From positions 1,300,575 to 1,364,574 of the forward strand of contig CP070837.1 in the NCBI GenBank assembly GCA_020341815.1: 64,000 nt of DNA, written 5' to 3'. The position numbers and the translations under genes are program-made. This document shows, piece by piece, positions 1 to 45,363 of the stretch. Source of the stretch: Candidatus Omnitrophota bacterium (lineage in GTDB: Bacteria; Omnitrophota; Gorgyraeia; JAFGHF01). A model generated the notes under the pieces. It was not told the origin of the DNA, made no database searches, and was given only the letters and a program-made list of their open reading frames with translations. Each line of letters opens with the position of its first letter. Positions within the stretch are counted from its first letter, which is position 1.

Positions 1-57
1 GTCTTATACTGGAAGTTTGGTTTAAATAAACCCGGTATATCTACGCAAAAAGTATCT

Positions 58-1173
58 GTGCAAAAGATGAAAAACGGCGAATTTCAGCTTTTAGCGAAGG
101 ATGAGCCTTACTTTGTAAAAGGAGCAGTCTATCATCCTATACCCATAGGGCAAAATCATCAGTACAACTTTTGGAACGATCCTAATCAACCCTGGATAGA
201 AGACGGGCGTCTGATGCATCGGATGGGGGTAAACACAGTGCGTTTTTTTCAACCGGGAGAAGAGGCTAAGGAAACTTGCAGAGTTATTGACCGTTTTTAT
301 CAGCTTTACGGAATCCGCACAATATTGGGCCACTGGATGGACTACTGGAATCCGGGAAATTATGCCGATACCCGCTATCGTGAAGATTTAACCAGACGGG
401 TATTGGAGATGGTCAATACATACAAAGACGAAGAAGGAGTTTTATTGTGGATACTGGGGAACGAAAACAATCTTTCCTGGCATTCCGGAGGGAAGGTTCC
501 CTGGACCTGCCCCGAAGTAGAGCAGATGCAAGACCCTCAGAAAAAAGAACAGGCCAAAGCCAAGATTTATTATTCTCTGGTTAATCAGATTGCCCGCGAG
601 ATTAAAAAGATAGACTCAGAACATCCGGTGGCCTTAGGTAATGCCGATTTCTATAGTCTGGAGGTGGCCGGGGAGGTTTGCCCGGATATCGATTTGATAG
701 CTCTTACTTGCTATCGCGGTAAAACCCTGGGCAATCTCTGGCGGGAAGTAGAGCGAAAGACCGGTAAGCCCGTCTTGGTTATGGAATTCGGTTGCGATAG
801 TTTTAATGCCAAGACAGGCCAGGAAGATCAGGAAATACAGTCTGTCTTCCTGAAAAGTCAATGGCAGGAAATCGAAGCTAATCGGGCCGGCTCAGGCGGT
901 GTGGGAAATGCTTTGGGTGGGTGTGTCTTTGAGTGGAACGATGAATGGTGGAAACACGATGAACATATGGTCTCCAGCTGGTTTGTGCACAATACCGAAG
1001 GCGACTGGTCCGCCGGCGGTTATTATTTCGATATCGCCGCGCCTAATAATATGAATGTCAATGAGGAATGGTGGGGAATTATCGCTTTAAGTCCGGAATT
1101 GGAAAACGGGATAAATAAACGCATTCCAAAGAGAGGGTATTATGAATTACAAGAAATATGGAAGCAGAAGTAA
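58..1173 (+). CDS. Glycoside hydrolase, TIM-barrel (clan GH-A-like). Possibly 5'-partial, because the frame stays open back to position 1.
   Basis: The 371-aa ORF carries an 'ILGNENN' acid/base-like motif and a 'VLVMEFGCDS' nucleophile-like motif typical of GH5/GH2-type (beta/alpha)8 hydrolases. No in-frame stop lies upstream of the window start. The 3' end overlaps the next gene. Confidence 0.45.
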   Translation: MQKMKNGEFQLLAKDEPYFVKGAVYHPIPIGQNHQYNFWNDPNQPWIEDGRLMHRMGVNTVRFFQPGEEAKETCRVIDRFYQLYGIRTILGHWMDYWNPGNYADTRYREDLTRRVLEMVNTYKDEEGVLLWILGNENNLSWHSGGKVPWTCPEVEQMQDPQKKEQAKAKIYYSLVNQIAREIKKIDSEHPVALGNADFYSLEVAGEVCPDIDLIALTCYRGKTLGNLWREVERKTGKPVLVMEFGCDSFNAKTGQEDQEIQSVFLKSQWQEIEANRAGSGGVGNALGGCVFEWNDEWWKHDEHMVSSWFVHNTEGDWSAGGYYFDIAAPNNMNVNEEWWGIIALSPELENGINKRIPKRGYYELQEIWKQK

Positions 1174-4100
1174 TTGCATCTGGAGAGTAATAAGATTTAT
1201 CACCATTTGCCTTACTCTTGTATTTCTGTTTAATACTCCGGCTTTTGCCTTGGGCTCAAGCGTGGCGGACTTCTTGTGTGAAATCGCAATAAAGTACTAT
1301 GAGCAGGGTAAATACGAAGACGCCCTGCACGAATTTAAAAAAGCTCTTATGGTTATGCCTCAGCATCCCCAGGCCCTGAAATATATTCAGGTTATTGAGC
1401 AGAAATTGGCTTTACTGAAACCGCAAAGAGAAATTATGCCGCCTGCAGAAGCAATTCAAGCCCTTGAGGTTTCCGAAGAGCTTGAGCGCAAAAAAGCGCT
1501 TAACCGGGCCCTGGATCAGGCAGAGGCATTAATTCTGGTGCCGGAAGCAGAAGCAGGCGAAGAAGAGGTAGAAGAAATAGAAGAATGGCAGATGCCTCAA
1601 GGTCCGCAGCCGGAGATGGAAGAAATATATCCGTCACCGGAAGAGGAAATTTATCCATACACAGCCGATGAAGAATTATATCCCTCGCCGCCAGAGGAAG
1701 CCTATTCCGAGCCGCTTATCGAAATGGCCAGAGCAGAAGACGAAGAACAATTTTATCCCCCCCATCCCGAAGACGAGGCAGAAACATCGATTTTTGTGCC
1801 GGAAGCAGAAGCAGGCGAAGAAGAGATGGAAGAGATAATACCGGAACCAATGGTTAAAAAAGGCGAAGAGGCTCCCGAAGAAACTTATGCGGCGAAGGAA
1901 GTGGAAAAGGAAAAAGATGAAGATACCTCCCCCATTAAAATTAGCGGAGAATTTTTGGTAAGCCTGGGCACTTCGGACAAGGAACTTATCTGGAAAGAGG
2001 CCAACGGCGATTACAATGAGGCCAACTGGCGCAGAATCGATGAGAGTTTTGGGGTTAATACATATGACAGGCGTATTTATGATAGATTACGCGTGAATAT
2101 CGATACGGAAAAGGAAGAAGGACTTAACTTCCATAGTAATATTACTATGGATCCCTGGACTTTTATCGGGAAATCAAATAAGATTAGAGCTACAAGTCTT
2201 GTAGGGGATGAGTCTGCCGAGATCCAGTTGAAATACTGGTCGGGCACAAGGTCGATAATAAATGAATCGGTTGATTTTACTACCGATGTTTTCAATATTC
2301 CCGAAACAAAAGTACTAGACGGGAAAGTTGCGCCTTTTAGGGCCAGAGGAATTGAATTCGCTGCGGATGCGTTTGATGTGGTGAATATTCCGGAACTGGA
2401 GATTCATCAGGATTACTGGCCGGTAAGAGAGTTGTGGTTTGATTATAAAAGTGAAGATAAATTCCATTTCCGCTTCTTTCCCGTTGCCTATCAGGACCAG
2501 GCCTTGAGTTCCGACGACCCCTTGAAGCTTTCCAACCATAGGATTTATTGGGAGGAAAGCCCCTGGCTGGACAGGTGGCAGTCGGGAAGGGTGCACACAG
2601 ACGTTGTGCCTGAGGATTTTACCAGGGGCCAGTGGGAGGATGATCTCTCCTTCTTTACCCGCGACAGCAATATGGTCTATCTGACTTCTCTGCGTGGCTA
2701 TTCTATGAAAAGCAAGCCTTGGGAAAATTTAACCATAGAATCGACAGCAGCCACCCCCAAAGGCCTGTGGCAGGATTACGATGCCGTGGATAATATTGCA
2801 GGGGCGACCAGGATCAAGTTTATACCGCAGGATGATTTACTTCTGGGTTTAATTCATACCTTTAGATATGGCTTGGAAAAGGGCGACCGTGATGCAGAGA
2901 ACAGGGTGGTCGGCGGCGATATTTGTTATAACTTTTTCTCCGACTTTCATGTAAAGGGTGAAGTCGCCCATAGCTGGGATGAACGCGATCTTACCCAGGA
3001 AACTTATGATACGGACAATGAAGGCAATGCCTATAAATTCGAACTTAAAAGAGGAAAGCTCAAGGAAGAAAGGCCGGAGAGATGGGATGAAGAGGCCTAT
3101 GCAAAGGCAGAGCCTTTTGATTACGCGCTGCGCCTTAGTTATACGCGTATGGATGAAGATTTTTATCCCGGCCTGGCCACTTATCGCATTACTCGCCGCG
3201 ACCCCTTCTGGGGAAGGCATATCCATTTTGAACAGCCCTATAGAGAATATTATGGCGGGCTTTATGAGCCCACCCTGACCTGGGACGACATCCGTCCCTT
3301 TCGTATCGGCGATTCCGTAGATATAGATAGAGAGGTGGCGGGCTTGAGACTGGAGAAGGCCTTCTTAGGAGGAGACCTGGAGACGCTCTTTGATTGCCGC
3401 CGGGCCCATGAAGTTTCCGAAGGCAAATATATTGAGACTATCGGCAGGACCGAAGCCGACTGGTATGCCAGCGAAAGACTCTTGATAAAATTTCTGGCCC
3501 TTTATCACGATTTGCCCGATACTACCGGCGGAATAGACCCTATCATTTACGATGTAGACAGCAATAAATTTTTACTTAACGATGAGATAGAGGATGGGGC
3601 AGATCCTTCTTTAAAAACGGTATCCGCGGGATTTCAGTATGGATTTTTTGATTGGCTGTCTTTCGATTGTATTTATGAACGTACCAATGATTTTACCGTG
3701 GCCCTGGATGATTATCCGCGCAGGCTGCTTAGTAACCCGAATTTTACCACTGTTACCGAAGATGGCTTAATCTGGCGGGAACCGGCGCCTTTTCTTTATA
3801 ACAATTATCTTTTTCCTTTGCCGTCTTATCCCTGGTTTAATATCTACAAGGCGGCATTGGAATTGGAGCCTAACGATGATTTGAAATTGAGAGTTGAGTT
3901 TACCAAGAATGATTATAAATTTGCCGGTCAAATAGACGATAATATTAACCATCTGGGCTTTGAGGCAGACTGGGATATTACCGAGAAGCTTTCTCTGCAA
4001 CTTAACTATACATATGCAAGAAGTTATAATCTATGGAAGCAGGTAAACGGGGTAGCCGACGGTGCATTGGAATACGAGAAGCACCACAATGCCTTTGTAA

Positions 4101-4264
4101 ATTTAAATTACAAAATGGATGATAAGGGGATTTTCACCGTGCAGTTCGGGGAAGGGGCGCTTATGCCTTATAGCGCAATGTTTACTACCAGCCCCTATTC
4201 CGGATTTATTCCGACCTTGGATACCGCCCACATCATCCGCGCCTATTTTAGCAGGAAATTTTAA
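1142..4264 (+). CDS. Large secreted outer-membrane protein: signal peptide, TPR-like N-terminus, acidic/proline-rich low-complexity repeats and a ~800-aa C-terminal beta-barrel-like domain ending in Phe.
   Basis: The N-terminus has a hydrophobic signal and a TPR-like motif ('YYEQGKYEDALHEFKKAL'). Residues ~130-250 hold PEAEAGEEE and E-I-Y-P repeats, encoded by a 45-bp near-identical DNA direct repeat at 1538-1588 and 1790-1840. The C-terminus '...RAYFSRKF' matches the outer-membrane beta-barrel C-terminal Phe signature. Architecture resembles TPR+porin exporters (BcsC/PgaA type), but no family is recognised. Confidence 0.4.
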   Translation: MNYKKYGSRSNCIWRVIRFITICLTLVFLFNTPAFALGSSVADFLCEIAIKYYEQGKYEDALHEFKKALMVMPQHPQALKYIQVIEQKLALLKPQREIMPPAEAIQALEVSEELERKKALNRALDQAEALILVPEAEAGEEEVEEIEEWQMPQGPQPEMEEIYPSPEEEIYPYTADEELYPSPPEEAYSEPLIEMARAEDEEQFYPPHPEDEAETSIFVPEAEAGEEEMEEIIPEPMVKKGEEAPEETYAAKEVEKEKDEDTSPIKISGEFLVSLGTSDKELIWKEANGDYNEANWRRIDESFGVNTYDRRIYDRLRVNIDTEKEEGLNFHSNITMDPWTFIGKSNKIRATSLVGDESAEIQLKYWSGTRSIINESVDFTTDVFNIPETKVLDGKVAPFRARGIEFAADAFDVVNIPELEIHQDYWPVRELWFDYKSEDKFHFRFFPVAYQDQALSSDDPLKLSNHRIYWEESPWLDRWQSGRVHTDVVPEDFTRGQWEDDLSFFTRDSNMVYLTSLRGYSMKSKPWENLTIESTAATPKGLWQDYDAVDNIAGATRIKFIPQDDLLLGLIHTFRYGLEKGDRDAENRVVGGDICYNFFSDFHVKGEVAHSWDERDLTQETYDTDNEGNAYKFELKRGKLKEERPERWDEEAYAKAEPFDYALRLSYTRMDEDFYPGLATYRITRRDPFWGRHIHFEQPYREYYGGLYEPTLTWDDIRPFRIGDSVDIDREVAGLRLEKAFLGGDLETLFDCRRAHEVSEGKYIETIGRTEADWYASERLLIKFLALYHDLPDTTGGIDPIIYDVDSNKFLLNDEIEDGADPSLKTVSAGFQYGFFDWLSFDCIYERTNDFTVALDDYPRRLLSNPNFTTVTEDGLIWREPAPFLYNNYLFPLPSYPWFNIYKAALELEPNDDLKLRVEFTKNDYKFAGQIDDNINHLGFEADWDITEKLSLQLNYTYARSYNLWKQVNGVADGALEYEKHHNAFVNLNYKMDDKGIFTVQFGEGALMPYSAMFTTSPYSGFIPTLDTAHIIRAYFSRKF

Positions 4265-4268
4265 AAAA

Positions 4269-6728
4269 ATGAAAGGAGAGAAAGGATTGAAGTACGGACA
4301 TTTTAGCAACGATGGTTTGGAATATGTTGTCACCACGCCAAACACGCCCCGCCCCTGGATTAATTATTTAACTAACGAAGAATATTGTGCCATTGTCTCA
4401 CAGACCGGCGGCGGTTACAGTTTCTTCAAAGACTGCCGTTCGGACAGGCTTACCCGCTGGCTTCCGGAGAACTGGCATTTTGACCGTCCCGGCCGCTATC
4501 TCTATCTCAAAGATGTTCATCCCACCGCAGCCCATGGCTCAAAAGTATGGGCGGCGACATATCAGCCTTTAAGAGTAAAACCGGATTTTTACGAATGCCG
4601 GCACGGATTGGGTTATACGACGATTGCAACGAAATATTTTGGCGTGCGTTCCGAGGTGACTTATTTTGTTCCGCGTCACGACAATTGCGAGCTCTGGCTG
4701 GCCAGGATTACCAATACAACCGATAAGGATAAAACCCTGGAGGTCTTTCCTTATGTAGAGTGGTTGCTCGGCGATTATCATCTGGAGTTACGTTACCGCA
4801 ATATTATGAATTTATACAATCGGGTCTGGTATGAAGCTAAAGATAGAGTTATTCTGGCCAAAAAGACCGCTGCCTGGGGCGATTTGAACATTAAGCCTTT
4901 TACCGATATTGCCTTTTTCGCAACGTCTTTGCCGGTAAAAGGTTATGCCACGCGCAAAAGCATATTTTTGGGCAAGTTCAATACCGAAGAAAATCCCGAA
5001 GGCCTGGTAATGAACGGCCGATTTAAAAATATCGGCTTTTGTTCGGGAGAAGACAGCATTGGTTGTCTGCGTCATACAATAAATCTTGCTCCAGGACAGA
5101 GTAAGGAATTTGCGGTGATTATGGGCCAGGTAGTTTCTCGGCCCAGCGCAAGAAATCTTATCCGGAAGTATCGCCAGGTTTCTAATGCAAAAAAGGAATT
5201 GTCCGAGGTGAAAAAAGTCTGGCGCAGGCGCATCGTTGATAATATCAAGATTGAGACGCCGGATAAGAATCTCGACCTAATAATGAATGTCTGGGTGAAA
5301 TACCAGCTTTATATCTGTAATTTCTGGTCGCGCTCGCCGTCTTTTTATCATGAGGGTTCAGGCGGACGGGGTTATCGCGATTCCTGTCAGGATAGTGAGG
5401 CTATTGTTTCTATTAACCCGGAGCTTACCCGTAAAAGAATCTTAACTTTGGCTTCTTTAATCAGGAAGGACGGCACCAGCGCTCCCGGGTTTTCCGAAGC
5501 GAATAAACCGCAAGGCCATCGGCCCAATAAAGACCATCCGATTTGGCTGACTACGACCGTCTCTGCTTATATTAAAGAGACCGGTGATAAAAAGATACTT
5601 CTGAAGAAATTACCTTATCTCAAAGACCGTTGGATTGACGGTTGGGAGATAGATGCGAACTTTAAAGGCTCTTCCAGATTTGAAGGAAGCGGGACTTTAT
5701 TCGAGCATCTGGAGAGGAACCTGAATTTCACCTTTAATGATGTGGGAAAACGAGGCCTGCCCTTAATCGGCCATGCAGATTGGAACGATGCCATTGACGC
5801 AGCCGGAATAAAGCTGAAAGGCGAAAGCGTCTGGCTGGCTCAGGGCCTGGTGCGCTCTTTAAAGCAGTTAAGCGAACTGGCCTGTCTTATCGGAAAAGAA
5901 AAGAGAGCGAAAGAACTCACCCGTAAAGCCGAAATTATGTCCGAGCGCATCAACAAATATTGCTGGGATGGGGCCTGGTACAAAAGAGGCTTTACCGATA
6001 ACGGCAGTGTATATGGAAGCAGGCAAAACACCGAAGGAAAGATTTATCTGAACAGCCAGTCCTGGGCAATACTTTCCGGTGTGGCCAAGAACGAAAGATT
6101 AAATAAGGTGTTAAGTTCGGTGAATAAATATTTAGACGGGCCGCACGGACTGGCTTTGTTTTATCCGGCTTATTCCAAGTTTGACTCAAGGCTGGGGAGA
6201 ATCAGTATGTTTGCCGAGGGTACAAAGGAAAATGCCGCCGTATTTTGTCATGCGGCAACCTTTATGGCTGTAGCTTATTGCCTGGCAGGCAGAGGTCAAG
6301 AGGCGTATGAGGCGTTAAGGAAGATTATGCCCAGCGCCCAGGCCGATTACGATGTCTATAAGACCGAGCCCTATGCCTATGCCGAATATTTAGTGGGGCC
6401 GGAGCACCCCTATCTTTATGGGGAAGGAGCCTTTACCTGGATTACCGGCACCGCCGGCTGGAACTTTATGGGTGCCTGTGAATATCTTTTAGGTATTCAG
6501 AGGGATTTTTCCGGATTAAGGATTAATCCTTGTATTCCCAAAGACTGGAAGGCATTTAAAATCAGGCGGCCATTTAGAGGCAACGTTTATGAAATAGAAG
6601 TGGAGAATCCGCATCAAGTCTCACGGGGAATAGAAAAGATTTTAGTAGACGGTCGGCCCATAAAAGGCAACCTCGTTCCTGCTTTTGCCGACGCAAAGAC
6701 GCACAAGGTTAAAGTAATAATGGGGTGA
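4269..6728 (+). CDS. GH94 glycoside phosphorylase (cellobiose/chitobiose phosphorylase family).
   Basis: The N-terminus 'MKGEKGLKYGHFSNDGLEYVVTTPNTPRPWINYLTNEEY...GGGYSFFKDCRSDRLTRW' is collinear with cellobiose phosphorylase N-termini, and the ~819-aa length is typical for CBP. The start was chosen at ATG 4269, just after the upstream gene's stop. The ORF-track start at 4119 overlaps that gene. Confidence 0.8.
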   Translation: MKGEKGLKYGHFSNDGLEYVVTTPNTPRPWINYLTNEEYCAIVSQTGGGYSFFKDCRSDRLTRWLPENWHFDRPGRYLYLKDVHPTAAHGSKVWAATYQPLRVKPDFYECRHGLGYTTIATKYFGVRSEVTYFVPRHDNCELWLARITNTTDKDKTLEVFPYVEWLLGDYHLELRYRNIMNLYNRVWYEAKDRVILAKKTAAWGDLNIKPFTDIAFFATSLPVKGYATRKSIFLGKFNTEENPEGLVMNGRFKNIGFCSGEDSIGCLRHTINLAPGQSKEFAVIMGQVVSRPSARNLIRKYRQVSNAKKELSEVKKVWRRRIVDNIKIETPDKNLDLIMNVWVKYQLYICNFWSRSPSFYHEGSGGRGYRDSCQDSEAIVSINPELTRKRILTLASLIRKDGTSAPGFSEANKPQGHRPNKDHPIWLTTTVSAYIKETGDKKILLKKLPYLKDRWIDGWEIDANFKGSSRFEGSGTLFEHLERNLNFTFNDVGKRGLPLIGHADWNDAIDAAGIKLKGESVWLAQGLVRSLKQLSELACLIGKEKRAKELTRKAEIMSERINKYCWDGAWYKRGFTDNGSVYGSRQNTEGKIYLNSQSWAILSGVAKNERLNKVLSSVNKYLDGPHGLALFYPAYSKFDSRLGRISMFAEGTKENAAVFCHAATFMAVAYCLAGRGQEAYEALRKIMPSAQADYDVYKTEPYAYAEYLVGPEHPYLYGEGAFTWITGTAGWNFMGACEYLLGIQRDFSGLRINPCIPKDWKAFKIRRPFRGNVYEIEVENPHQVSRGIEKILVDGRPIKGNLVPAFADAKTHKVKVIMG

Positions 6729-8128
6729 AAATGGAAAGAAGAGAGTCTATCCGTTTGGAAAAGACTCTGCCGGTAAAGTTTGACTTACCTGACGTACCCG
6801 CAACTGGCAGCGTTAATGCCTTAGCCAGAAATATCGCCGAGGGCGGAATATTTATTGAAACCGACCTTGTCCAGGATGAAGAAATCAGTTTAGTTAGAGA
6901 GTCGCCTTTAAATTTGGAGTTTGAGCTTTTAGGCCATATACAAAGAATAAAGCCGAAGGCGAGAATCGCCTGGATAAGCAGGAAATCCGCTACCCAAAAG
7001 GAAAGGAACGGCTTTGGCGTAAGATTTATTCAGCTGGGACCCAGAGAAAAAAGGATAATTTCATTATTTATCTCGAGAGAATCGCTGGCGAAAGACGAGC
7101 TTGTAGAAAAAGAAACACCCGTTATATCGGGAGAGCAAAAGTTAACCGACAGACAGCGCAGAAACTTAAAGATTCTGGATGTCATCAGAAAAAACAGGCT
7201 GATTTCGCGGGCTGAAATCTCCAAGAGCACCGGCATAAATATAGTTACGGTCTCTAATTATATTGACACCTATCTTAAAAAGGGCCTGGTTTTTGAAAGA
7301 GGCCTGGACATCTCAACAGGAGGCAGGCGTCCGGAACTGGTGGAGATAAATCCCGACTATGGATATGCCATCGGGGTAGATTTAGGCCCTTTAAGTGAAA
7401 GCCCTGCCCGGATAGCGGTAGCGGCCGTTGATTTTACCGGCCGCGTGAAGGCGAGCGCCTTGAGAGAAAGAGGCAGCGACAATATTGAAGATTCCGTGGT
7501 TGTCTCCAAGGACTTGATTAAAGAGATATTGGCAAATGACGCGCTTGATAAAAGACGGGTCAGGGGAATTGGCCTGGGTATTTCCGGAATAATGGATAAG
7601 TTCGGCGGTACCGTGCGCAATCCTTCTACAAAGGTTACCTACGCCAATTACCTGGCGATTAAAAAAGAATTAGAGGATGAGTTCGGTCTTCCGGTATTTA
7701 TTGAAAATGCCACCAGTTGTGCCTTGTTCGCCGAGAAATGGGTGGGCTTAAGCCCGGAGGCGAGAGCGGCCGATAATATTATTTATATCTTTTCGGAGCA
7801 TCAATGCGCAATTATGCTTAAGGGCGAGCTCTATACAGGGACCAGTAAAAGCGCTGGACTCTTAAATCTTGTCCAGGACCTGGGGATATCTCTGGATGTC
7901 AAGATTGCCTATCTGGTAAATATTTTTAATCCCCAGGTGGTCGTAATAGGCAGGAACTTTTTCCAGTCGCCGGATGCGTTTTCAGACACTATTCGCCGGA
8001 CAGTCAGCCGCTGGGCCTTTCGGGAAGGGGCGCAACAGGTGCGGATTATTCCTGCTACTTTGGAGGAGACAGCCACGGCCCGGGGAGCGGCCTCTTTAGT
8101 AATCGAGGCTGCTTTTGCGAATATATAA
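6725..8128 (+). CDS. PilZ-domain / ROK-family (NagC/XylR-like) fusion transcriptional regulator.
   Basis: The N-terminus has PilZ motifs: RRxxxR ('RRESIR') and a DxSxxG-like motif ('NIAEGG') about 30 aa later. The middle has a winged-HTH ('ILDVIRKNRLISRAEISKSTGINIVTVSNYID'). The C-terminus is a ROK sugar-kinase-like fold ('AIGVDLGP...') that lacks the Cys-rich zinc motif. The start overlaps the GH94 stop (ATGA). Confidence 0.55.
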   Translation: MKMERRESIRLEKTLPVKFDLPDVPATGSVNALARNIAEGGIFIETDLVQDEEISLVRESPLNLEFELLGHIQRIKPKARIAWISRKSATQKERNGFGVRFIQLGPREKRIISLFISRESLAKDELVEKETPVISGEQKLTDRQRRNLKILDVIRKNRLISRAEISKSTGINIVTVSNYIDTYLKKGLVFERGLDISTGGRRPELVEINPDYGYAIGVDLGPLSESPARIAVAAVDFTGRVKASALRERGSDNIEDSVVVSKDLIKEILANDALDKRRVRGIGLGISGIMDKFGGTVRNPSTKVTYANYLAIKKELEDEFGLPVFIENATSCALFAEKWVGLSPEARAADNIIYIFSEHQCAIMLKGELYTGTSKSAGLLNLVQDLGISLDVKIAYLVNIFNPQVVVIGRNFFQSPDAFSDTIRRTVSRWAFREGAQQVRIIPATLEETATARGAASLVIEAAFANI

Positions 8129-8305
8129 GTAAGGCCACGACTTAGTGAATGATAATGAAACTAAGTCGTCTGGCCGAACTTATCCCGATAGCTGCAAGAA
8201 AATTTATTCTAAATTTTCGCAGTGTTTTGCTATCGGGATTAATTCACACTTATCACTTACGTCACTATTGTTCCGTAAGTGATGTGCTCATTAAAAGGTG
8301 GGGGG

Positions 8306-9481
8306 ATGGATAAAAAGATTAAACTCCTTTTGGTTGTTTTGGGGTTGATTTCTCTGTTGGGGGCGGGTCTTTCGGCGTGGATTTATTTTTCCGCCCAGGA
8401 AGAAATTATCAGATACGAGGATAAGTATAGCGAATTAGAAAAGAATAATGCATATCTTCGCCAGGGATTGGATGTTGCCGAGAAGGAAAGCCGCCAGTGG
8501 CGGGAAAAGGCGGAGCTTGTAACTGCCACTCTCAATGAATTGAGCCAGAAGTTTAATCTCCTGCAGCAGCAGTATGTATCTTTGAATAAAGAGAAGGATT
8601 CGCTATTCGATGAAAATAAAAGCCTTCTTGAGCAATTGGAGAAAATGAAAGGATTTTATTCCAAAGTTCAGGAGGAAAGGTTAGAAATAATAGAAAAAGT
8701 AGAAGTAGATGCTTCGGATGAATTCTTATCTTCTCTCTTAAAGGAAAAGGCGGCCCTGCAGGTAGAAATAGAAAAGTTAAGAGGGCAGATTGAGAGCGTA
8801 AAGAAGCAAATACGGCCTTCGCAGAATGAATTTGTCAAACTGGAACTAGAAAAAGGCTCGGTGGAGAAAAAATTAAGCGATATGGAGCGTGCCTCAGGCC
8901 TCTTAAGCAGTGATCTTTTGCAGGAGAGAAAAAAGAGGAGTTCTTTAGAGGAGGAGTTAGTCAGAACCGAAGGCCGGCTTTACCGCATAACCCAGGAAAA
9001 AGATAAGCTCGCCGAGCAACTTACCAAGATGAAGCAGGCCCTGGAGAAGAGGCTTCTTGAGTTAAGCGATACGAAGAAGGTGTTGGAAAGCGCGGTCGAG
9101 GGGGCAAAGAAGGCGATGCAGAAGACAGATGCAGGTATCGGCTCCATTGAATTGTCGCCCATTGTGGTAAAGGCAGAGCCGCCGAAAAAAGAGGCGCAGG
9201 AAATTGCGCCGCCGGCGAAAGAACCGCCGAAAAAAGAGGTGCAAGAGAAGCACTTCACGATAGAAGGCCGCATTATTACGATTAACGACAAACATAAGTT
9301 TGTGGTAATTGATATAGGCCGGGATGCCGGCGTGGAAAAGAAAATGCCTTTTAGTGTCTATCGCCAGGATAAAGAAGTAGGAAAAATAGAAGTAATTGAG
9401 GCGCGCAAAAATATCGCTGCCTGCGATATTAAAGAGATGAAGGTCAAGAATTTCGAAATTAACGACAGCGTACGCAGATGA
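8306..9481 (+). CDS. Membrane-anchored coiled-coil protein with a PEPPKKE repeat and a C-terminal beta-rich domain.
   Basis: ATG at 8306 is preceded by the RBS AAAGGTGGGGGG. The product has an N-terminal TM helix, a long heptad-rich region, a 'PPKKEAQEIAPPAKEPPKKEVQEK' repeat and a C-terminal ~80-aa domain. Confidence 0.4.
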   Translation: MDKKIKLLLVVLGLISLLGAGLSAWIYFSAQEEIIRYEDKYSELEKNNAYLRQGLDVAEKESRQWREKAELVTATLNELSQKFNLLQQQYVSLNKEKDSLFDENKSLLEQLEKMKGFYSKVQEERLEIIEKVEVDASDEFLSSLLKEKAALQVEIEKLRGQIESVKKQIRPSQNEFVKLELEKGSVEKKLSDMERASGLLSSDLLQERKKRSSLEEELVRTEGRLYRITQEKDKLAEQLTKMKQALEKRLLELSDTKKVLESAVEGAKKAMQKTDAGIGSIELSPIVVKAEPPKKEAQEIAPPAKEPPKKEVQEKHFTIEGRIITINDKHKFVVIDIGRDAGVEKKMPFSVYRQDKEVGKIEVIEARKNIAACDIKEMKVKNFEINDSVRR

Positions 9482-9980: not shown

Positions 9981-10095
9981 TGAACCCCGCTCTTCCAAAA
10001 CATCACGCCTTGCATAAAAGATATGGGTGAAGGCGGTAGGAGGAAGGATGGGGATAAGGGTTTGGCATTACAAAGAAAGGAAGGGCGGGGTGAAG
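9981..10095 (+). repeat. MITE/REP-like inverted-repeat element, copy A (TIRs TGAACCCCGCTCTTCC ... GGAAGGGCGGGGTGAAG).
   Basis: It starts 2 nt after the upstream stop codon. Its interior is ~90% identical to copy B. The 3' terminus carries the GTG (10090) used as the bioY start. Confidence 0.7.
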
Positions 10096-10680
10096 GCCTT
10101 AGAGTTATCCCGGAGTTTTTTACATAGAGAAATCGCTCTTGATCGGACCGCATCAAGAGTAATAGGACTTTGCTGCTTTACTATCCTGACGGCTTTGGGG
10201 GCTTATGTGCGCATTCCCTTGCCGTTTACGCCGGTGCCTATTACCTTGCAGACCTTTTTTGTTTTGCTTTCCGGGGCAGTGCTGGGGAAGAAATGGGGAG
10301 CCTTGAGCCAGCTAAGCTATCTTTTGCTGGGCATTATGGGTTTGCCGGTCTTTACGGGGACTGGGGCGGGCCTATCTTACCTTTTTGGGCCCACGGGAGG
10401 ATATCTTCTGGGATTTGTTGCGGCCAGCTGGATAGTCGGGTCTGCGCTTGAGCGAAGGTCTGCAAATAATACAAGCCGGATTACGCTGGCGATACTCAGC
10501 GGCTCTTTAGCAGGAATTTATCTTTTCGGGATTTCGGGATTAAGGCTCTTTTTGCAGTGTAATTTCTCAAAGGCAGTGGCCTTGGGATTTTTACCTTTCA
10601 TACCCGGAGATATTATAAAGATTATTAGCGCAGTCTTTATCTATGGCAAAATTCAAAAAAGATGCCTAGAATTATTTTAA
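10090..10680 (+). CDS. bioY: Biotin transporter BioY (ECF S-component).
   Basis: 'TLQTFFVLLSGAVLGKKWGA...GLPVFTG...GPTGGYLLGF' is the BioY signature. The start is proposed at GTG 10090 inside the repeat terminus. The longer ORF-track start at 10027 would translate repeat sequence. Confidence 0.7.
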   Translation: MKALELSRSFLHREIALDRTASRVIGLCCFTILTALGAYVRIPLPFTPVPITLQTFFVLLSGAVLGKKWGALSQLSYLLLGIMGLPVFTGTGAGLSYLFGPTGGYLLGFVAASWIVGSALERRSANNTSRITLAILSGSLAGIYLFGISGLRLFLQCNFSKAVALGFLPFIPGDIIKIISAVFIYGKIQKRCLELF

Positions 10681-11291
10681 TTTCCTTGGCTATTCCGGTG
10701 TTTCTCATAGCCGCTTCCGCCTCAGCCGAAATGAAAGATGCGAGATTCCAGAACCGGCATGGAGTGAGAATCGCAACCAGCGACAGCGACGATAGTTTTT
10801 ATGTGACCCGGGCCGGGGCTCTTGTAGATTACAGTTTTCCCCGCTTGAATAAAATTATAAAAATTCTGCCCTTTTTCGAATACCAGCATAATCTCGATAA
10901 TGGCGCCTGGTGGAGAAAAGAAGCCGGCGTAGAAGTGGGCAGTTCTTTTTTTAATGATTGTTTTTACTGGGGTGCTTCCTTTCAGCATATCTGGCAGCAG
11001 GAGGAGAATTACGCTGTTGAGGCCAACGATGAGACCAGTGAATGGGAATCGCGTTTCGTGATTACCCCTCCCATAAAATGGTGGCTCTTTAAAGATAAAT
11101 TGACCTTGAAGCTTTTTGATGAATATACCTATGATTTCGAAAGAGGCCAGCCCACTATTAATGAAGTGGGCGTGAGTTTCGACTGGCAGATTAGCGAAAA
11201 AGTAAAAATGCCCCTTGGCTGGAGGCATATAGACAGGATTCATGATTTTGATTCTGACTTGATGGAAGTATCCGTATTGTTTTCCTTTTAA
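10662..11291 (+). CDS. Small secreted outer-membrane beta-barrel-like protein (hypothetical).
   Basis: Signal peptide; C-terminus '...SVLFSF' ends in Phe; alternating amphipathic strands. Confidence 0.3.
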   Translation: MPRIILISLAIPVFLIAASASAEMKDARFQNRHGVRIATSDSDDSFYVTRAGALVDYSFPRLNKIIKILPFFEYQHNLDNGAWWRKEAGVEVGSSFFNDCFYWGASFQHIWQQEENYAVEANDETSEWESRFVITPPIKWWLFKDKLTLKLFDEYTYDFERGQPTINEVGVSFDWQISEKVKMPLGWRHIDRIHDFDSDLMEVSVLFSF

Positions 11292-11307: not shown

Positions 11308-12267
11308 ATGAGACGACACATTGTATCTTTTGTAACGATGGTAATAATCTTAGGCAGCTATGCGAAGATTTCTTCTGCTTACTGGATCTGGACTCCCCAG
11401 ACCGGAAAGTTTATCAATCCCAAATATGCGGTAAAGGAGACGCCCCAGAAACAGTTTGACTGGGCGATGACTTTCTTTGAGGCCGAGGATTACAAAAAGG
11501 CAATCGCCGAATTCGAGAAGCTCATCAAGCATTATCCTCTTTCAAAGCTTGCGGCCTCCAGCCAGTTTCATCTGGCCTGGGCCCAGGAAAATACGGGGGA
11601 TTATTACAAGGCATTCAAGAGTTATCAACTGGTTATCGATAAATATCCCTACTCGGAACGGGTGGATGAGATAATCGAAAGGCAATACCGTATCGGTAAT
11701 CTCTTCTATAGCGGACAGAAGGCCAAGCTCTTAGGCGTGCCTATATTGCCCGCAAAAAAACAGGCCATAGAAATCTTTAGCGCAGTGGTTGAGAACGCCC
11801 CCTACGGCAAATACGCCCCTTATGCCCAGTACAAATTGGGTGAATGTTATATGGAGATAGAAGATTATATCAATGCGGCCTTGGCCTTTAAGAAAATTAT
11901 CGAGAGTTACCCCAAAAGCCCCTTAGTTGACGACGCCAAGTACCAGATAGCAATGTGCGCGGCAAATTCCACCAGCGGCCCGGAATACAATGAAGAGGAT
12001 ACGGATAAGGCGATTAAAGAATTTAAAGATTTCGTCAGGAGATATCCCGACAGCCAGATGGAAAAAGAGGCCCACCAGCTTATCGATAAACTGGAAGACC
12101 AGAAGGCCCAAAATCAATTCAATATTGCCCGTTTTTATGAAAAACAGAAAAACTTAGACAGTGCTATTATTTATTACGAGGAGATACTGGACAAATATCC
12201 CCAGAGTGAATGGGCGGTCAAGGCCCTGGAGCGGGTACAGATAATCCGCAAAGAGATGGAAAAGTAA
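11308..12267 (+). CDS. bamD: Outer membrane protein assembly factor BamD-like TPR lipoprotein.
   Basis: Signal sequence, multiple TPR motifs ('EDYKKAIAEFEKLIKHYP', 'ARFYEKQKNLDSAIIYYEEILDKYPQSEWA') and the ~300-aa size typical of BamD/YfiO. Confidence 0.5.
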   Translation: MRRHIVSFVTMVIILGSYAKISSAYWIWTPQTGKFINPKYAVKETPQKQFDWAMTFFEAEDYKKAIAEFEKLIKHYPLSKLAASSQFHLAWAQENTGDYYKAFKSYQLVIDKYPYSERVDEIIERQYRIGNLFYSGQKAKLLGVPILPAKKQAIEIFSAVVENAPYGKYAPYAQYKLGECYMEIEDYINAALAFKKIIESYPKSPLVDDAKYQIAMCAANSTSGPEYNEEDTDKAIKEFKDFVRRYPDSQMEKEAHQLIDKLEDQKAQNQFNIARFYEKQKNLDSAIIYYEEILDKYPQSEWAVKALERVQIIRKEMEK

Positions 12268-12270
12268 TTA

Positions 12271-12385
12271 TGAACCCCGCCCTTCCAAAACATCATACTT
12301 TGCATAATAGATATGGGCGAAGGTGGCAGGAGGAAGGATGGGGATAAGGGTTTGGCATTGCGAAGAAGGGAAGGGCGGGGTGAAG
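12271..12385 (+). repeat. MITE/REP-like element, copy B.
   Basis: It begins 3 nt after the bamD stop. The TIRs are TGAACCCCGCCCTTCC / GGAAGGGCGGGGTGAAG. The GTG at 12380 is the lptE start. Confidence 0.7.
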
Positions 12386-15759: not shown

Positions 15760-15871
15760 ACCCCGCCCTTCCTAAAAAACGTAAGTTAGGTATCAAAAAA
15801 AGAATTAGAGGACTTTACCTTTGCCAAAGAATATATGTAGACTAAGCAGAAAAATGAAGGGCGGGGTGAAG
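15757..15871 (+). repeat. MITE/REP-like element, copy C (divergent interior).
   Basis: It starts at the murJ stop (TAAACCCCGCCCTTCC) and ends GAAGGGCGGGGTGAAG. The uvrC ATG 15854 and GTG 15866 lie within it. Confidence 0.65.
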
Positions 15872-20810: not shown

Positions 20811-21912
20811 ATGATGCTGGATGATTTGAAGGCAAGACTTAAAACTATGGCCGAGCGCCTGGAGCAGCTGCGAGGTTATCTTTGACGTAGACAAAAAAGG
20901 GGCGCGGATAAAGGATATCGAAGGCCGGATGTCTCATCCGCAATTCTGGAAGGACAGCAAAAAGGCCCAGGAGCTGATTGGTGAATTAAAGGGCTTAAGG
21001 AATAGCTGTCTGGGCTGGAAAAAGGCCAAGGAGCAGCACGCGGATTTGGAGGAGCTTGCCGAGGTTGTGGAGAGTGAGGATACTTCAAGTCTTGAGTATC
21101 TGGATAGAGACCTTAGGCAATTATCCAGCGATATAGATAAACTTGAGTTTACCACTCTGCTTAGCGGCGAGGAAGATAAAAATAACGCCATCCTGAGCAT
21201 TCACGCCGGGGCCGGAGGAACCGAATCCTGCGACTGGACAGGGATGCTTGCGCGGATGTATCTTCGCTGGACCGAGAGAAAAGGCTTTGTTGCCTCGACA
21301 CTGGACTTTCTGCCGGGTGAGGAAGCGGGCACAAAAAATATCACTATCCTGATAAAAGGCGAATACGCCTATGGCTACCTCAAAGCAGAGAGCGGGGTGC
21401 ACCGCCTGGTACGCATCTCTCCCTTTGATGCCAATAAGCGCCGGCATACCTCATTTGCCTCTGTAGATGTGATTGCCGAGATAAGTGATGAGATTAAAGT
21501 AGAAATAAAACCCGAAGATTTAAAGATAGATACTTTTCGCTCTTCCGGAGCCGGCGGACAGCACGTAAACGTGACTGATTCGGCGGTGCGCATAACTCAC
21601 CTGCCCACGGGCATCATTGTCCAGTGCCAGAACGAGAGATCGCAGTTTAAAAACAAGTCGCAGGCCTTGAAGGTATTGCGCGCCCGGCTTCACGAAAGAG
21701 AAAAGGAAGAGCAGAGGAAAAAGCTGGAGGCCGGTTACGCCGCCAAGCAGGATATTGCCTGGGGCAGCCAGATTCGCTCCTATGTCCTGCACCCTTATAC
21801 TATGGTCAAAGACCACCGCACCAATTACGAGAAGGGAAACGCAAGTGGCGTATTGGACGGCGATATCGATGAGTTTATCGAGGCCTATCTCAAATGGAAG
21901 GTTAAAAAATAA
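20811..21912 (+). CDS. prfB: Peptide chain release factor 2 with a programmed +1 ribosomal frameshift (frame 0 20811-20882; +1 frame 20884-21912).
   Basis: Frame 0 encodes 'MMLDDLKARLKTMAERLEQLRGYL' and then reaches CTT TGA C, the canonical RF2 autoregulatory frameshift site. The +1 frame continues 'DVDKKGARIKDIEGRMSHPQFW...' through the SPF and GGQ motifs. Confidence 0.85.
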
Positions 21913-24789: not shown

Positions 24790-24804
24790 TAAATAAAACC
24801 TTGT

Positions 24805-44065: not shown

Positions 44066-44196
44066 CCCGCCCTTCCTTTCATCTCATCGTAATCTTAGGT
44101 CCAATTTTAACTTTGCTAGACTGTCTCTGCATTGCTTTATAGCTTTTACCCTTGCCCTTAATTGTAAGTATGCGGTTTTAGGAAGAGCGGGGTTCA
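44062..44196 (-). repeat. MITE/REP-like element, copy E (between lptF stop and lptG start).
   Basis: The TIRs are TCACCCCGCCCTTCC ... GGAAGAGCGGGGTTCA with a unique interior. The GTG-bearing terminus faces lptG. Confidence 0.6.
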
Positions 44197-45290: not shown

Positions 45291-45363
45291 CCCGCTCTTC
45301 CTTTCTTCCCAATACCACTTGCCTATCCCCAATCCTTCCGATGTTTAGGAAGGGCGGGGTTCA
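45287..45363 (-). repeat. MITE/REP-like element, copy F (between comF stop and lptF start).
   Basis: The TIRs are TCACCCCGCTCTTCC ... GGAAGGGCGGGGTTCA. Confidence 0.6.

What the first reader, a model, noticed from the sequence alone, without database searches (positions are those of the whole stretch)
58..6728. Glycan locus: GH-A hydrolase, giant TPR/acidic-repeat/beta-barrel outer-membrane protein and GH94 phosphorylase, with no SusCD or TonB-type importer
Three translationally coupled genes precede the PilZ-ROK regulator. The 1040-aa middle protein has a signal peptide, a TPR-like segment, ~120 aa of highly acidic PEAEAGEEE / EIYP repeats (duplicated at the DNA level) and an ~800-aa C-terminal domain ending in Phe, as outer-membrane beta-barrels do. 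In overall plan it resembles TPR-porin exopolysaccharide exporters (BcsC, PgaA, AlgK/E), yet it sits between a hydrolase and a cytoplasmic phosphorylase. It could be a novel oligosaccharide porin or an export scaffold for beta-glucan turnover.
Basis: partly seen in the sequence, partly recalled or inferred. Interest (0 to 1): 0.55.

Follow-up and report, generated by a model that had tools for sequence, protein, structure and literature searches.

The report
Omnitrophota giant barrel in beta-glucan locus
The 1040-residue protein is a predicted giant outer-membrane beta-barrel from an undescribed family seen almost only in Omnitrophota, and because it nearly always sits beside beta-glucan-degrading genes it is most likely the outer-membrane entry channel for beta-glucan fragments in bacteria that lack SusC/D-type importers.

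Summary
The described anatomy is real. ORF2 (1142-4264) has a signal peptide, one TPR motif, a disordered acidic linker with DNA-level repeats, and a ~780-aa C-terminal domain. AlphaFold2 models that domain confidently as all-beta. Its only structural neighbours are large outer-membrane barrels, at low TM-scores. All 117 aligned homologues end in Phe.

The barrel has no Pfam family and no sequence relative in the PDB. It forms a compact family: 192 clusters among 1.84 billion representatives, and every named member is from Omnitrophota.

In 82 related loci the family sits beside beta-glucan genes in several different arrangements:
- an ABC importer
- GH157/158-like glucanases
- CBM-like lipoproteins
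- GH94, GH161 or GH116 enzymes
- ROK, LacI and PilZ regulators

No synthase was seen, so uptake is favoured over export.

Two corrections. The first gene is cut by the window edge; its start lies 63 nt upstream. The locus also continues upstream: a CBM-like gene was seen directly, and close relatives carry an ABC importer there. "No importer" therefore holds only for the outer membrane.

The channel function is inferred from gene neighbourhood, not shown. Verdict: a new family of a known kind, of moderate-to-good interest.

The parts
1..1173 (+). ORF1: clan GH-A glycoside hydrolase most like the beta-1,3-glucanase families GH158 and GH157. The window edge cuts its 5' end. The full protein is 411 aa and begins with an N-terminal transmembrane or signal-anchor helix.
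   Evidence: The frame is open to base 1. Full-length P0121 and Logan contig L083 place the ATG 63 nt upstream of the window. Best PDB sequence match is GH158 entry 9oro, E 8.9e-9. AlphaFold2 model has pLDDT 87.9. Top Foldseek hits are GH158 (9p26, 9oro, 6pal) and GH157 (9fz9) at TM 0.54-0.63 and about 19% identity. The Glu of GNENN and the Glu of the EFG motif, which by position I take to be the clan GH-A acid/base and nucleophile, are invariant in the alignments.
1142..4264 (+). ORF2: 1040-aa outer-membrane protein of the family called F0 in this report.
   Evidence: 100% identical to NCBI JSV30_06280. At least 157 homologues at E<=0.001; every source name that gives a phylum says Omnitrophota/Omnitrophica. 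247 genome loci encode a relative.
1142..1249 (+). Signal peptide, aa 1-36, with a probable cleavage site at AFA|LG.
   Evidence: Read from the sequence. AlphaFold2 models a helix at aa 10-30. The family consensus keeps 'FA' at this position.
1259..1417 (+). Short TPR module, aa 40-92 (three helices, one TPR motif plus a capping helix). A further long helix follows at aa 103-131 (1448-1534).
   Evidence: Pfam TPR_1 and TPR_2 at aa 42-75. TPR_2 is hit in 49 of 49 members. AlphaFold2 helices with pLDDT about 90. The module is missing from deep-branching members P0298 and P0281, so it is accessory.
1535..1918 (+). Disordered acidic, Pro-containing linker, aa 132-259, enlarged in this lineage by internal duplication.
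   Evidence: pLDDT about 30. The wider segment aa 93-262 is 33% Asp+Glu and 12% Pro. In 117 homologues that segment ranges from 22 to 170 aa with a median of 71, and the window protein has the longest.
1518..1579 (+). First copy of the 62-nt direct repeat, encoding ...VPEAEAGEEEVEEI.
   Evidence: repeat family D3, 85% identity to the second copy.
1776..1837 (+). Second copy of the 62-nt direct repeat, encoding ...VPEAEAGEEEMEEI.
   Evidence: repeat family D3.
1618..1700 (+). 27-nt tandem array, 3.2 copies, encoding the EEIYPSPEE-type repeats.
1925..4261 (+). C-terminal ~780-aa beta-barrel domain, aa 262-1040, ending in Phe. It has roughly 26-28 long strands plus highly conserved non-strand segments at aa 451-515 and 671-729.
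   Evidence: AlphaFold2 pLDDT is mostly above 90. Foldseek returns only large outer-membrane barrels: TonB-dependent transporters from E 5e-13, and MtrB with the best target-normalised TM of 0.38. Weak Pfam outer-membrane-barrel or porin hits occur in members: OMP_b-brl in 23 of 49, plus Porin_2, Porin_4 and MtrB_PioB. Many strands alternate hydrophobic and polar residues. The PDB sequence profile search matched only TPR proteins.
4269..6728 (+). GH94 glycoside phosphorylase, 819 aa, with no signal peptide and so cytoplasmic. It is most like cellobiose phosphorylase.
   Evidence: Pfam GH94 catalytic domain E 1.8e-110 and supersandwich domain E 2.3e-65. End-to-end alignment to C. thermocellum cellobiose phosphorylase 3qde, E 1.7e-152, with the ADWND, RDSxQD and FCH motifs conserved.
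6725..8128 (+). PilZ - winged-helix - ROK fusion protein, a probable sugar-responsive and possibly c-di-GMP-responsive regulator. It is the conserved downstream neighbour of F0 in about 24 loci.
   Evidence: Pfam ROK 9.6e-18, PilZ 3.4e-8, HTH_24 4e-5. Synteny.
8279..9481 (+). 400-aa membrane-anchored coiled-coil protein (family F24), a recurrent downstream neighbour of F0. Its function is unknown.

Best explanation
ORF2 is the outer-membrane part of a beta-glucan utilisation locus in an Omnitrophota bacterium. The substrate is probably beta-1,3-glucan or laminarin-type.

Proposed pathway. A large TonB-independent beta-barrel, built from roughly two dozen or more strands, lets beta-glucan oligosaccharides cross the outer membrane. 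In the periplasm, membrane-anchored GH157/158-like glucanases and CBM-like lipoproteins process and hold the chains. An SBP-dependent ABC transporter carries the products into the cytoplasm. There a clan GH-Q phosphorylase converts them to glucose-1-phosphate: GH94 in this genome, GH161 in most relatives. ROK, LacI and PilZ proteins regulate the system.

The short N-terminal TPR module and the variable charged linker hang in the periplasm. They probably tether the channel to a periplasmic partner. They are accessory, because deep-branching members lack them.

Shown here: the gene anatomy, the barrel prediction, how narrowly the family is distributed, and the repeated linkage to these enzyme families.

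Inferred: the direction of transport, the substrate, the absence of gating, and the role of the TPR and linker.
For: 1. Barrel. AlphaFold2 models aa 262-1040 confidently, and Foldseek finds only large outer-membrane barrels. The signal peptide and a C-terminal Phe in 117 of 117 members fit an outer-membrane protein. So do weak Pfam porin and barrel hits and alternating strand polarity.

2. Linkage to glycan catabolism in several distinct arrangements:
- SBP, two permeases, TPR-GH, CBM lipoprotein, GH, then F0, then PilZ-ROK. This holds in about 22 loci and in the two most divergent members examined, at 31% identity.
- The same cassette lies downstream of F0 in L035.
- F0 is convergent with a GH161 beta-1,3-glucan phosphorylase in 37 loci. 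The GH161 assignment rests on PDB 9qqk at E 1e-234.
- F0 and GH161 are co-directional in L081.
- GH94 lies directly downstream in the window clade.
- GH116 lies directly upstream, seen as a read-through into P0281, whose F0 part keeps its own signal peptide.
- F0 is followed by a ROK kinase-like gene and a LacI regulator elsewhere.
In all, 71 of 80 genome loci have such a gene within three genes of F0.

3. Substrate. ORF1's nearest structures are laminarinases of GH158 and GH157. GH161 is a beta-1,3-glucan phosphorylase family (PMC6484121).

4. Direction. Every linked function is catabolic or import-type. No glycosyltransferase or synthase appeared among the annotated neighbour families.

5. 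ORF1 carries an N-terminal transmembrane helix with no obvious cleavage site. That fits periplasmic hydrolysis, and hence a need to import oligomers across the outer membrane.
Against: - No experiment supports any of this. The function rests on gene neighbourhood alone.
- In about half of the loci the upstream neighbours are housekeeping genes (cmk, lepA, lepB, pgsA, plsY) and the GH161 gene is convergent. That adjacency could be inherited synteny within one clade rather than an operon.
- Each locus, and each of the 80 assemblies sampled, holds one F0 copy, and sequence conservation is high for a porin. Both fit a general or essential outer-membrane protein equally well.
- The model's coordinates could not be inspected. 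Barrel closure, strand number, pore size and any plug are therefore unverified.
- Foldseek TM-scores are low (0.2-0.38).
- ORF1 is only about 19% identical to GH158 and GH157. The GH94 enzyme is closest to cellobiose phosphorylases. The glucan linkage is therefore uncertain.
Confidence: 0.55

Rival explanations
1. F0 is a general housekeeping outer-membrane protein of Omnitrophota, such as the major non-specific porin or an envelope tether. Its proximity to sugar genes would then reflect only that sugars are the main nutrient, or inherited gene order.
For: One copy per locus, and one locus in each of 80 different assemblies. Neighbourhood types follow the F0 tree, so these are orthologues rather than specialised paralogues. 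About 40 loci place it after cmk-lepA-lepB-pgsA-plsY, and others after secA-lnt-LpxL-like genes. Conservation is high along the whole barrel. The layout of a periplasmic module, a linker and a big barrel recalls the tethering porins SlpA and OmpM (my own knowledge; one member gave a weak SlpA_C hit).
Against: The deepest-branching members sit inside complete ABC-GH-CBM-GH loci. The cassette has moved to the other side of F0 in L035 yet stayed adjacent. Three different phosphorylase or glucosidase families (GH94, GH161, GH116) abut F0 in different lineages. The TPR and linker are missing from some members, so tethering is not the conserved core. This reading and the best explanation are not mutually exclusive.
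Confidence: 0.2
2. F0 is a translocon that places the locus's CBM-like lipoproteins or glucanases on the cell surface. This would parallel Slam proteins, which also combine an N-terminal TPR with a C-terminal barrel.
For: TPR-plus-barrel layout. CBM-like lipoprotein genes with lipobox signals lie one or two genes upstream in context A, L081 and L082, and in the window organism itself.
Against: No lipoprotein gene is adjacent in the roughly 40 GH161-context loci. The barrel is several times larger than a Slam barrel, which has 14 strands (my own knowledge). No TPR_Slam or DUF560 match appears among the 25 Pfam families listed for 49 members. Members without a TPR exist.
Confidence: 0.1
3. F0 is an export porin or scaffold for a secreted beta-glucan, in the manner of BcsC, PgaA, PelB or AlgK/E. 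The hydrolase and phosphorylase would then act in polymer turnover.
For: TPR-plus-barrel plan. PilZ domains are present in the locus, both in the ROK fusion and as small PilZ genes at the head of related loci. A hydrolase gene next to the porin gene is typical of synthase-dependent systems (my own knowledge).
Against: No GT2 or other synthase was found among the annotated neighbour families of 82 loci. There is one TPR motif rather than an array. No hit to those exporter families appears among the 25 Pfam families listed. The linked SBP_bac_1 plus permease genes and the cytoplasmic phosphorylases are uptake and catabolic functions.
Confidence: 0.05
4. F0 is a divergent member of a known large-barrel machine (LptD, an MtrB-type sheath, or a TonB-dependent transporter), or an outer-membrane enzyme.
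For: Foldseek's best hits are TonB-dependent transporters and MtrB. MtrB_PioB gives weak Pfam hits in 4 of 49 members. Invariant Asp, Glu, His and Trp clusters such as DxFWSRHIHF could form a catalytic or metal-binding site.
Against: TM-scores are only 0.2-0.38. No TonB_dep_Rec, Plug, LptD or OstA family appears among the 25 Pfam families listed for 49 members. No cytochrome genes lie nearby. LptF/G are present elsewhere in the window, which implies a separate Lpt pathway.
Confidence: 0.05

Closest known systems
Sugar-specific outer-membrane channels encoded in sugar-utilisation operons (LamB/ScrY maltoporin family, ChiP chitoporin, CymA, KdgM/NanC)
   Same: An outer-membrane beta-barrel encoded next to an SBP-dependent ABC importer and the catabolic enzymes for one glycan class. 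Presumed TonB-independent passage of oligosaccharides. Many conserved aromatic and acidic residues.
   Different: The barrel domain is about 780 aa with roughly 26-28 strands, against 12-18 strands and 250-450 aa. It has no sequence or Pfam relationship to those families. It carries an N-terminal periplasmic TPR and a long charged linker. It is confined to one phylum.
SusC/SusD and other TonB-dependent glycan transporters of polysaccharide utilisation loci
   Same: The same position in the logic of a glycan locus: outer-membrane importer, glycan-binding lipoproteins, endo-glycanase and regulator. TonB-dependent transporters are the top Foldseek hits.
   Different: No Plug or TonB_dep_Rec match appears in the Pfam listing, and there is no SusD partner gene. 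TM-scores are only 0.2-0.37. The inner-membrane step is an ABC transporter.
TPR-porin exporters of synthase-dependent exopolysaccharide systems (BcsC, PgaA, PelB, AlgK/AlgE)
   Same: A periplasmic TPR followed by a C-terminal outer-membrane barrel. A hydrolase gene and PilZ domains lie nearby.
   Different: One TPR motif rather than many. The barrel is about twice as large or more. No synthase is linked. The linked genes are catabolic or import-type.
Very large outer-membrane barrels: MtrB (26 strands), LptD (26), SlpA of Deinococcus (30, with an N-terminal periplasmic module and stalk)
   Same: Comparable barrel size. MtrB gives the best target-normalised TM-score, 0.38. The SlpA-like plan of periplasmic module, linker and giant barrel is similar.
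   Different: No significant sequence similarity. The partners and genomic context differ, with no cytochromes, no Lpt genes adjacent and no SLH domain.
Bacteroides beta-1,3-glucan utilisation locus with BuGH158 (PDB 6pal; PMC7157763)
   Same: A GH158-type endo-laminarinase fold (ORF1) working with surface or periplasmic glycan-binding proteins in a dedicated beta-glucan locus.
   Different: The Bacteroides locus uses SusC/D. Here the outer-membrane component is the F0 barrel, the inner-membrane step is an ABC transporter, and breakdown ends in phosphorolysis by GH94 or GH161.

Membership tests
Outer-membrane beta-barrel protein (general class) | N-terminal signal peptide, all-beta membrane domain, C-terminal aromatic residue (beta-signal) | tested here: met
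   Signal peptide read from the sequence. AlphaFold2 all-beta domain with pLDDT above 90. Foldseek finds only outer-membrane barrels. 117 of 117 members end in Phe. Strand polarity alternates.
Outer-membrane beta-barrel protein (general class) | Closed barrel geometry and strand number | not testable with these tools
   Model coordinates are not returned. The estimate of 26-28 strands comes from the DSSP string only.
BcsC / PgaA / PelB / AlgK-AlgE exopolysaccharide exporters | Long periplasmic TPR array | tested here: not met
   One TPR motif, three helices at aa 40-92.
BcsC / PgaA / PelB / AlgK-AlgE exopolysaccharide exporters | 16-18-strand C-terminal porin recognisable by the family's profile | tested here: not met
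   The barrel domain is about 780 aa. None of those profiles is among the 25 Pfam families listed for 49 members; the scan found 42 families in all, so 17 weaker ones were not shown.
BcsC / PgaA / PelB / AlgK-AlgE exopolysaccharide exporters | Genetic linkage to a polysaccharide synthase | tested here: not met
   None among the annotated neighbour families in 82 loci. Not every neighbour family was annotated.
SusC / TonB-dependent transporters | Plug domain, TonB box and 22-strand TonB_dep_Rec barrel | tested here: not met
   No such family is among the 25 Pfam families listed for 49 members. The N-terminus is a TPR. Foldseek TM to these transporters is 0.2-0.37.
SusC / TonB-dependent transporters | Adjacent SusD-like partner gene | tested here: not met
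   The neighbours are CBM-like lipoproteins, GH enzymes and ABC genes.
Sugar-specific porins (LamB, ScrY, ChiP, OprB, KdgM, CymA) | Sequence or profile membership, 12-18 strands | tested here: not met
   None of these families is among the Pfam families listed; only generic weak OMP_b-brl, Porin_2 and Porin_4 hits appear. The domain is far larger.
Sugar-specific porins (LamB, ScrY, ChiP, OprB, KdgM, CymA) | Encoded within the utilisation locus of its substrate | tested here: met
Sugar-specific porins (LamB, ScrY, ChiP, OprB, KdgM, CymA) | Demonstrated sugar translocation or binding | not testable with these tools
   Needs a bilayer or liposome assay.
Slam (TPR + DUF560 barrel) | TPR_Slam N-domain and 14-strand DUF560 barrel | tested here: not met
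   Neither family is among the Pfam families listed for F0 members.
LptD | OstA/LptD profiles, N-terminal beta-jellyroll | tested here: not met
   Neither profile is among the Pfam families listed. The N-terminus is helical TPR.
GH158 or GH157 (for ORF1) | Sequence membership in the CAZy family (dbCAN) | tested here: inconclusive
   dbCAN is not available here. Sequence match to GH158 entry 9oro, E 8.9e-9. Foldseek top hits are GH158 and GH157 at TM 0.54-0.63 but about 19% identity. Pfam gives only sub-threshold GH72 and GH2_C hits.
Clan GH-A retaining hydrolase (for ORF1) | TIM barrel with acid/base Glu (NE motif) and nucleophile Glu | tested here: met
   The Glu of GNENN and the Glu of the EFG motif are invariant in 8 and 61 homologues. 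Alternating strand-helix fold.
GH94 (for ORF3) | GH94 supersandwich and catalytic domains, with the catalytic Asp and phosphate-site motifs | tested here: met
   Pfam E 2.3e-65 and 1.8e-110. End-to-end alignment to 3qde with ADWND, RDSxQD and FCH conserved. Substrate was not determined.
GH161 (for the 1066-aa neighbour of F0 in relatives) | Sequence similarity to characterised or solved GH161 enzymes | tested here: met
   PDB 9qqk 'gh161 phosphorylase', E 9.7e-235 over the full length.

The most novel reading that the evidence does not exclude
F0 is the founding member of a TonB-independent class of giant glycan-import barrels. It would be the Omnitrophota counterpart of SusC, taking long beta-1,3-glucan chains into the periplasm for 'selfish' degradation. 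Its TPR and linker arm would dock the periplasmic TPR-glucanase, the CBM lipoproteins or the SBP into one trans-envelope uptake complex. PilZ proteins would place that complex under c-di-GMP control.
Probability: 0.3. Interest if true: 0.75.

Novelty: new variant of a known kind. Interest (0 to 1): 0.55.

Why it matters
How diderm bacteria outside the Bacteroidota move glycans larger than a few sugars across the outer membrane is poorly understood. To my knowledge this is especially true of the PVC group, to which Omnitrophota belong and which lacks SusC/D. Omnitrophota are uncultured, ultra-small, sugar-fermenting or host-dependent bacteria (PMC10066038).

A conserved outer-membrane barrel restricted largely or wholly to this phylum, and wired into its beta-glucan loci, gives a concrete and testable candidate for that missing step. 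It would also be a useful marker when annotating laminarin-type carbon turnover in sediments and groundwater. The barrel itself has no Pfam family and no solved relative, so it adds a new fold family to the set of large outer-membrane barrels.

Tried and rejected
- Exact look-up of ORF2 and P0001 to recover the source contig failed. The source genome is not among the 80 GTDB loci returned.
- An exact DNA scan of JGI metagenomes for the upstream sequence found nothing. Only 319 nt upstream of the window were recovered, from Logan contig L083.
- The PDB sequence profile search with the whole family matched only TPR proteins.
- Pfam and NCBIfam gave no family for the barrel.
- The promoter and terminator scan was no better than shuffled sequence.
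It was repeated with database homologues.
- Literature searches on Omnitrophota outer-membrane proteins, glucan use, GH158 and GH161 found no description of this family.
- Apparent second copies of F0 in L037 and L050 are not barrel paralogues. They are TPR, pilus-N and SdrD_B proteins that match only the N-terminal region.
- LptD, MtrB, TonB-dependent transporter, Slam and BcsC-type memberships were considered and rejected (see the membership table).
- The substrate of the GH94 enzyme was not pursued beyond motif conservation.

Full report
**What is in the window**

Four co-directional, tightly packed genes occupy bases 1-8128.

ORF1 is listed as 58-1173, but its frame is open to base 1. The database holds the full protein, P0121, at 411 aa (JSV30_06275, Candidatus Omnitrophota bacterium). 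Logan contig L083 matches the window start and places the ATG 63 nt upstream of base 1. The missing residues form a transmembrane or signal-anchor helix.

ORF2 (1142-4264, 1040 aa) overlaps ORF1 by 32 nt. It is identical to JSV30_06280.

The GH94 gene most probably starts at ATG 4269, 4 nt after the ORF2 stop. Similarity to cellobiose phosphorylase begins at residue 7 of that product.

The PilZ-HTH-ROK gene starts at 6725 or 6731, at the GH94 stop.

The DNA repeats in the acidic region are real. There is a 62-nt pair at 85% identity (1518-1579 and 1776-1837) and a 27-nt tandem array at 1618-1700.

**The middle protein**

AlphaFold2, run with 117 homologues, gives mean pLDDT 80.9 and pTM 0.74. 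The modelled parts are:
- a signal-peptide helix;
- three TPR-type helices at aa 40-92;
- a long helix at aa 103-131;
- a disordered stretch at aa 131-259 with pLDDT about 30;
- an all-beta domain from aa 262 to the C-terminus, with pLDDT mostly above 90 and roughly 26-28 long strands.

Foldseek against the PDB returns only large outer-membrane barrels. These are TonB-dependent transporters from E 5e-13, and MtrB with the best target-normalised TM-score of 0.38. All TM-scores are low, 0.2-0.38. The domain is therefore barrel-like, but no solved structure is close.

A sequence profile of the family matches nothing in the PDB except TPR proteins. Pfam gives only weak generic hits: OMP_b-brl in 23 of 49 members, plus Porin_2, Porin_4 and MtrB_PioB. 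No TonB-receptor, LptD, Omp85, BcsC-type or Slam family is among the 25 Pfam families listed.

All 117 aligned members end in Phe. Many predicted strands alternate hydrophobic and polar positions.

The segment between the TPR and the barrel, aligned to aa 93-262, varies from 22 to 170 residues. The window protein has the longest, apparently because of the internal duplications.

I could not inspect coordinates, so barrel closure and pore size remain unverified.

**How far the family reaches**

A profile of the barrel domain alone was searched against 1.84 billion representative proteins. It found only 192 clusters at E<=0.001, of which 172 were at E<=1e-10. There is no tail of distant relatives, and in full-length members the barrel reaches the protein's C-terminus.

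Every source name that gives a phylum says Omnitrophota/Omnitrophica. Most genome records say the same. The rest are titled only 'uncultured Planctomycetia', 'Planctomycetales' or 'uncultured bacterium', which are labels I could not check.

Some deep-branching members have no TPR or linker. P0298 is just a signal peptide plus the barrel. The barrel is therefore the conserved core, and the TPR arm is accessory.

I found no paper describing this family.

**Genomic context in relatives**

Eighty genome loci, each from a different assembly, were fetched. I clustered their ORFs into families and annotated the common ones. Three main neighbourhood types emerged.

Context A is the window's type, found in about 22 loci. 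The order is: small PilZ gene, SBP_bac_1, two BPD_transp_1 permeases, a roughly 800-aa TPR plus GH2_C-like hydrolase, a CBM-like lipoprotein, an ORF1-type hydrolase, F0, then PilZ-HTH-ROK. GH94 is inserted after F0 only in the window's closest relatives (L001, L002, L004).

Context B covers 37 loci. The order is cmk, lepA, lepB, pgsA, plsY, a small protein, F0, and then a convergent 1066-aa gene. That gene has no Pfam hit but matches solved GH161 phosphorylases over its full length, at E 1e-234. GH161 is a beta-1,3-glucan phosphorylase family (PMC6484121).

Other contexts run: secA, lnt, an LpxL-like gene, F0, sometimes a ROK kinase-like gene, the coiled-coil protein, and a LacI-family regulator.

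A neighbour-joining tree shows that these contexts follow F0 clades. The proteins are therefore orthologues, not specialised paralogues. In 71 of 80 loci a glycan-related family lies within three genes of F0.

Four further observations suggest the link is more than inherited gene order:
1. In L035 the whole ABC-GH-CBM-GH cassette lies downstream of F0 instead of upstream.
2. The two most divergent members examined, at about 31% identity, sit in complete cassettes. L081 runs SBP, permease, permease, TPR/GH, CBM, CBM, GH, F0, PilZ protein, GH161, an unannotated gene, PilZ-ROK. L082 runs SBP, permease, permease, GH, CBM, F0.
3. P0281 is a read-through of a GH116 beta-glucosidase gene into an F0 gene that keeps its own signal peptide. 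GH116 therefore abuts F0 in yet another lineage.
4. In the window organism itself, the 252 nt just upstream of ORF1 encode the C-terminus of the CBM-like protein. The locus therefore continues beyond the window exactly as in context A.

**The enzymes**

ORF1 keeps two invariant Glu residues, in the GNENN and EFG motifs. By position I take these to be the clan GH-A acid/base and nucleophile. Its best sequence match in the PDB is a GH158 enzyme, at E 8.9e-9.

Its AlphaFold2 model (pLDDT 87.9) is closest to GH158 and GH157 endo-beta-1,3-glucanases. These include structures with bound laminari-oligosaccharides and the Bacteroides uniformis laminarinase BuGH158. TM-scores are 0.54-0.63, ahead of GH2 and GH5 enzymes. 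Identity is only about 19%, so I call ORF1 GH157/158-like, not a member.

The GH94 protein aligns end to end with C. thermocellum cellobiose phosphorylase, at E 1.7e-152. The ADWND, RDSxQD and FCH motifs are conserved. It has no signal peptide. Its substrate (cellobiose, laminaribiose or other) is undetermined.

**Interpretation**

Every function linked to F0 is catabolic or import-type, and no synthase was seen. The linked functions are:
- periplasm-facing or secreted endo-glucanases;
- glycan-binding lipoproteins;
- a binding-protein-dependent ABC importer;
- cytoplasmic phosphorylases of three families;
- sugar regulators.

The simplest model is that F0 is the outer-membrane entry channel for beta-glucan fragments, probably of beta-1,3 or laminarin type. 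It would fill the place that SusC or other TonB-dependent transporters hold in other phyla. The membrane-anchored glucanase suggests that hydrolysis happens after import, so oligomers rather than disaccharides would cross the outer membrane. That would fit an unusually large barrel.

These steps are inferred. I put the channel model at about 0.55.

The main rival, at about 0.2, is that F0 is the general porin or an envelope-tethering protein of these small sugar-fermenting cells, and that synteny reflects history. The two readings overlap. A Slam-like lipoprotein translocon (about 0.1), an exopolysaccharide exporter (about 0.05) and a divergent known machine (about 0.05) are less likely, for the reasons given in the membership table.

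The anatomy was read correctly and the 'novel oligosaccharide porin' option is the favoured one. The analogy to BcsC, PgaA or AlgK/E and the export option are not supported. 'No importer' applies only to SusC/D or TonB-type outer-membrane importers.

**Novelty and interest**

This is a new, undescribed family, seen almost only in Omnitrophota, that fills a known role: the outer-membrane component of a glycan utilisation locus. Its architecture is unusual, with a giant barrel and an optional TPR-linker arm. I rate it a new variant of a known kind, with interest 0.55.

Noticed in passing
window 9984-10091, 12274-12381, 14807-14876, 15760-15867, 44064-44193, 45289-45360: A family of 70-130-nt elements bounded by GC-rich 12-13-nt inverted repeats (ACCCCGCCCTTC ... 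GAAGGGCGGGGT). The 12-mer has 12 hits against 0.42 expected, arranged as six convergent pairs. Two copies are about 90% identical throughout. There is no Rfam match. They look like MITE/REP-like or hairpin elements, and they add spurious N-terminal extensions ('GGRMGIRVWH') to ORFs 10027.. and 12323...
   Followed up: partly
window 6725-8128; also L010:1713-2048 and L081:10593-12539: PilZ domains recur in these glycan loci. They appear as a PilZ, winged-helix, ROK fusion (RxxxR present, N-x-A-x-x-G in place of D/N-x-S-x-x-G), as small stand-alone PilZ genes at the head of the cassette, and as a 648-aa PilZ protein. This hints at c-di-GMP control of glucan use.
   Followed up: partly
window 8279-9481: A 400-aa membrane-anchored coiled-coil protein (family F24) is a recurrent downstream neighbour of F0 across contexts, often followed by a LacI-family regulator. 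Its function is unknown.
   Followed up: no
window 10662-11291: A 209-aa protein with a signal peptide that ends ...VSVLFSF has no Pfam or NCBIfam match. It may be a small outer-membrane barrel. It lies just upstream of a BamD/YfiO-like TPR lipoprotein at 11308-12267.
   Followed up: no
L010:13714-15549 and L010:16810-20307: In context-A relatives the genes after PilZ-ROK encode a TolC-like OEP protein with an N-terminal TonB_C domain, and an AcrB-type pump with a C-terminal DeoR-type HTH. Both are unusual domain fusions.
   Followed up: no
proteins P0292 (2721 aa) and P0286 (1090 aa): Some F0 barrels carry other N-terminal parts. P0292 has a right-handed beta-helix, CarboxypepD_reg and SdrD_B domains. 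P0286 has a Protochlamydia Pom-type porin domain. I did not determine whether these are true fusions or gene-calling read-throughs.
   Followed up: no
L082:14886-18349: A called gene of 23,417 residues starts a few kb downstream of a divergent F0 locus. It is one of the giant genes known from Omnitrophota.
   Followed up: no
L059:15092-18610: The ribonucleotide reductase gene downstream of F0 in some relatives carries an intein with a LAGLIDADG endonuclease.
   Followed up: no
window 20929-26885 and 44202-45332: The rest of the window scanned is housekeeping and envelope biogenesis: prfB-type release factor, SecA, Lnt, an acyltransferase, MurJ, ClpB-type chaperone and LptF/G. No TonB-dependent receptor was found among the ORFs scanned.
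   Followed up: partly
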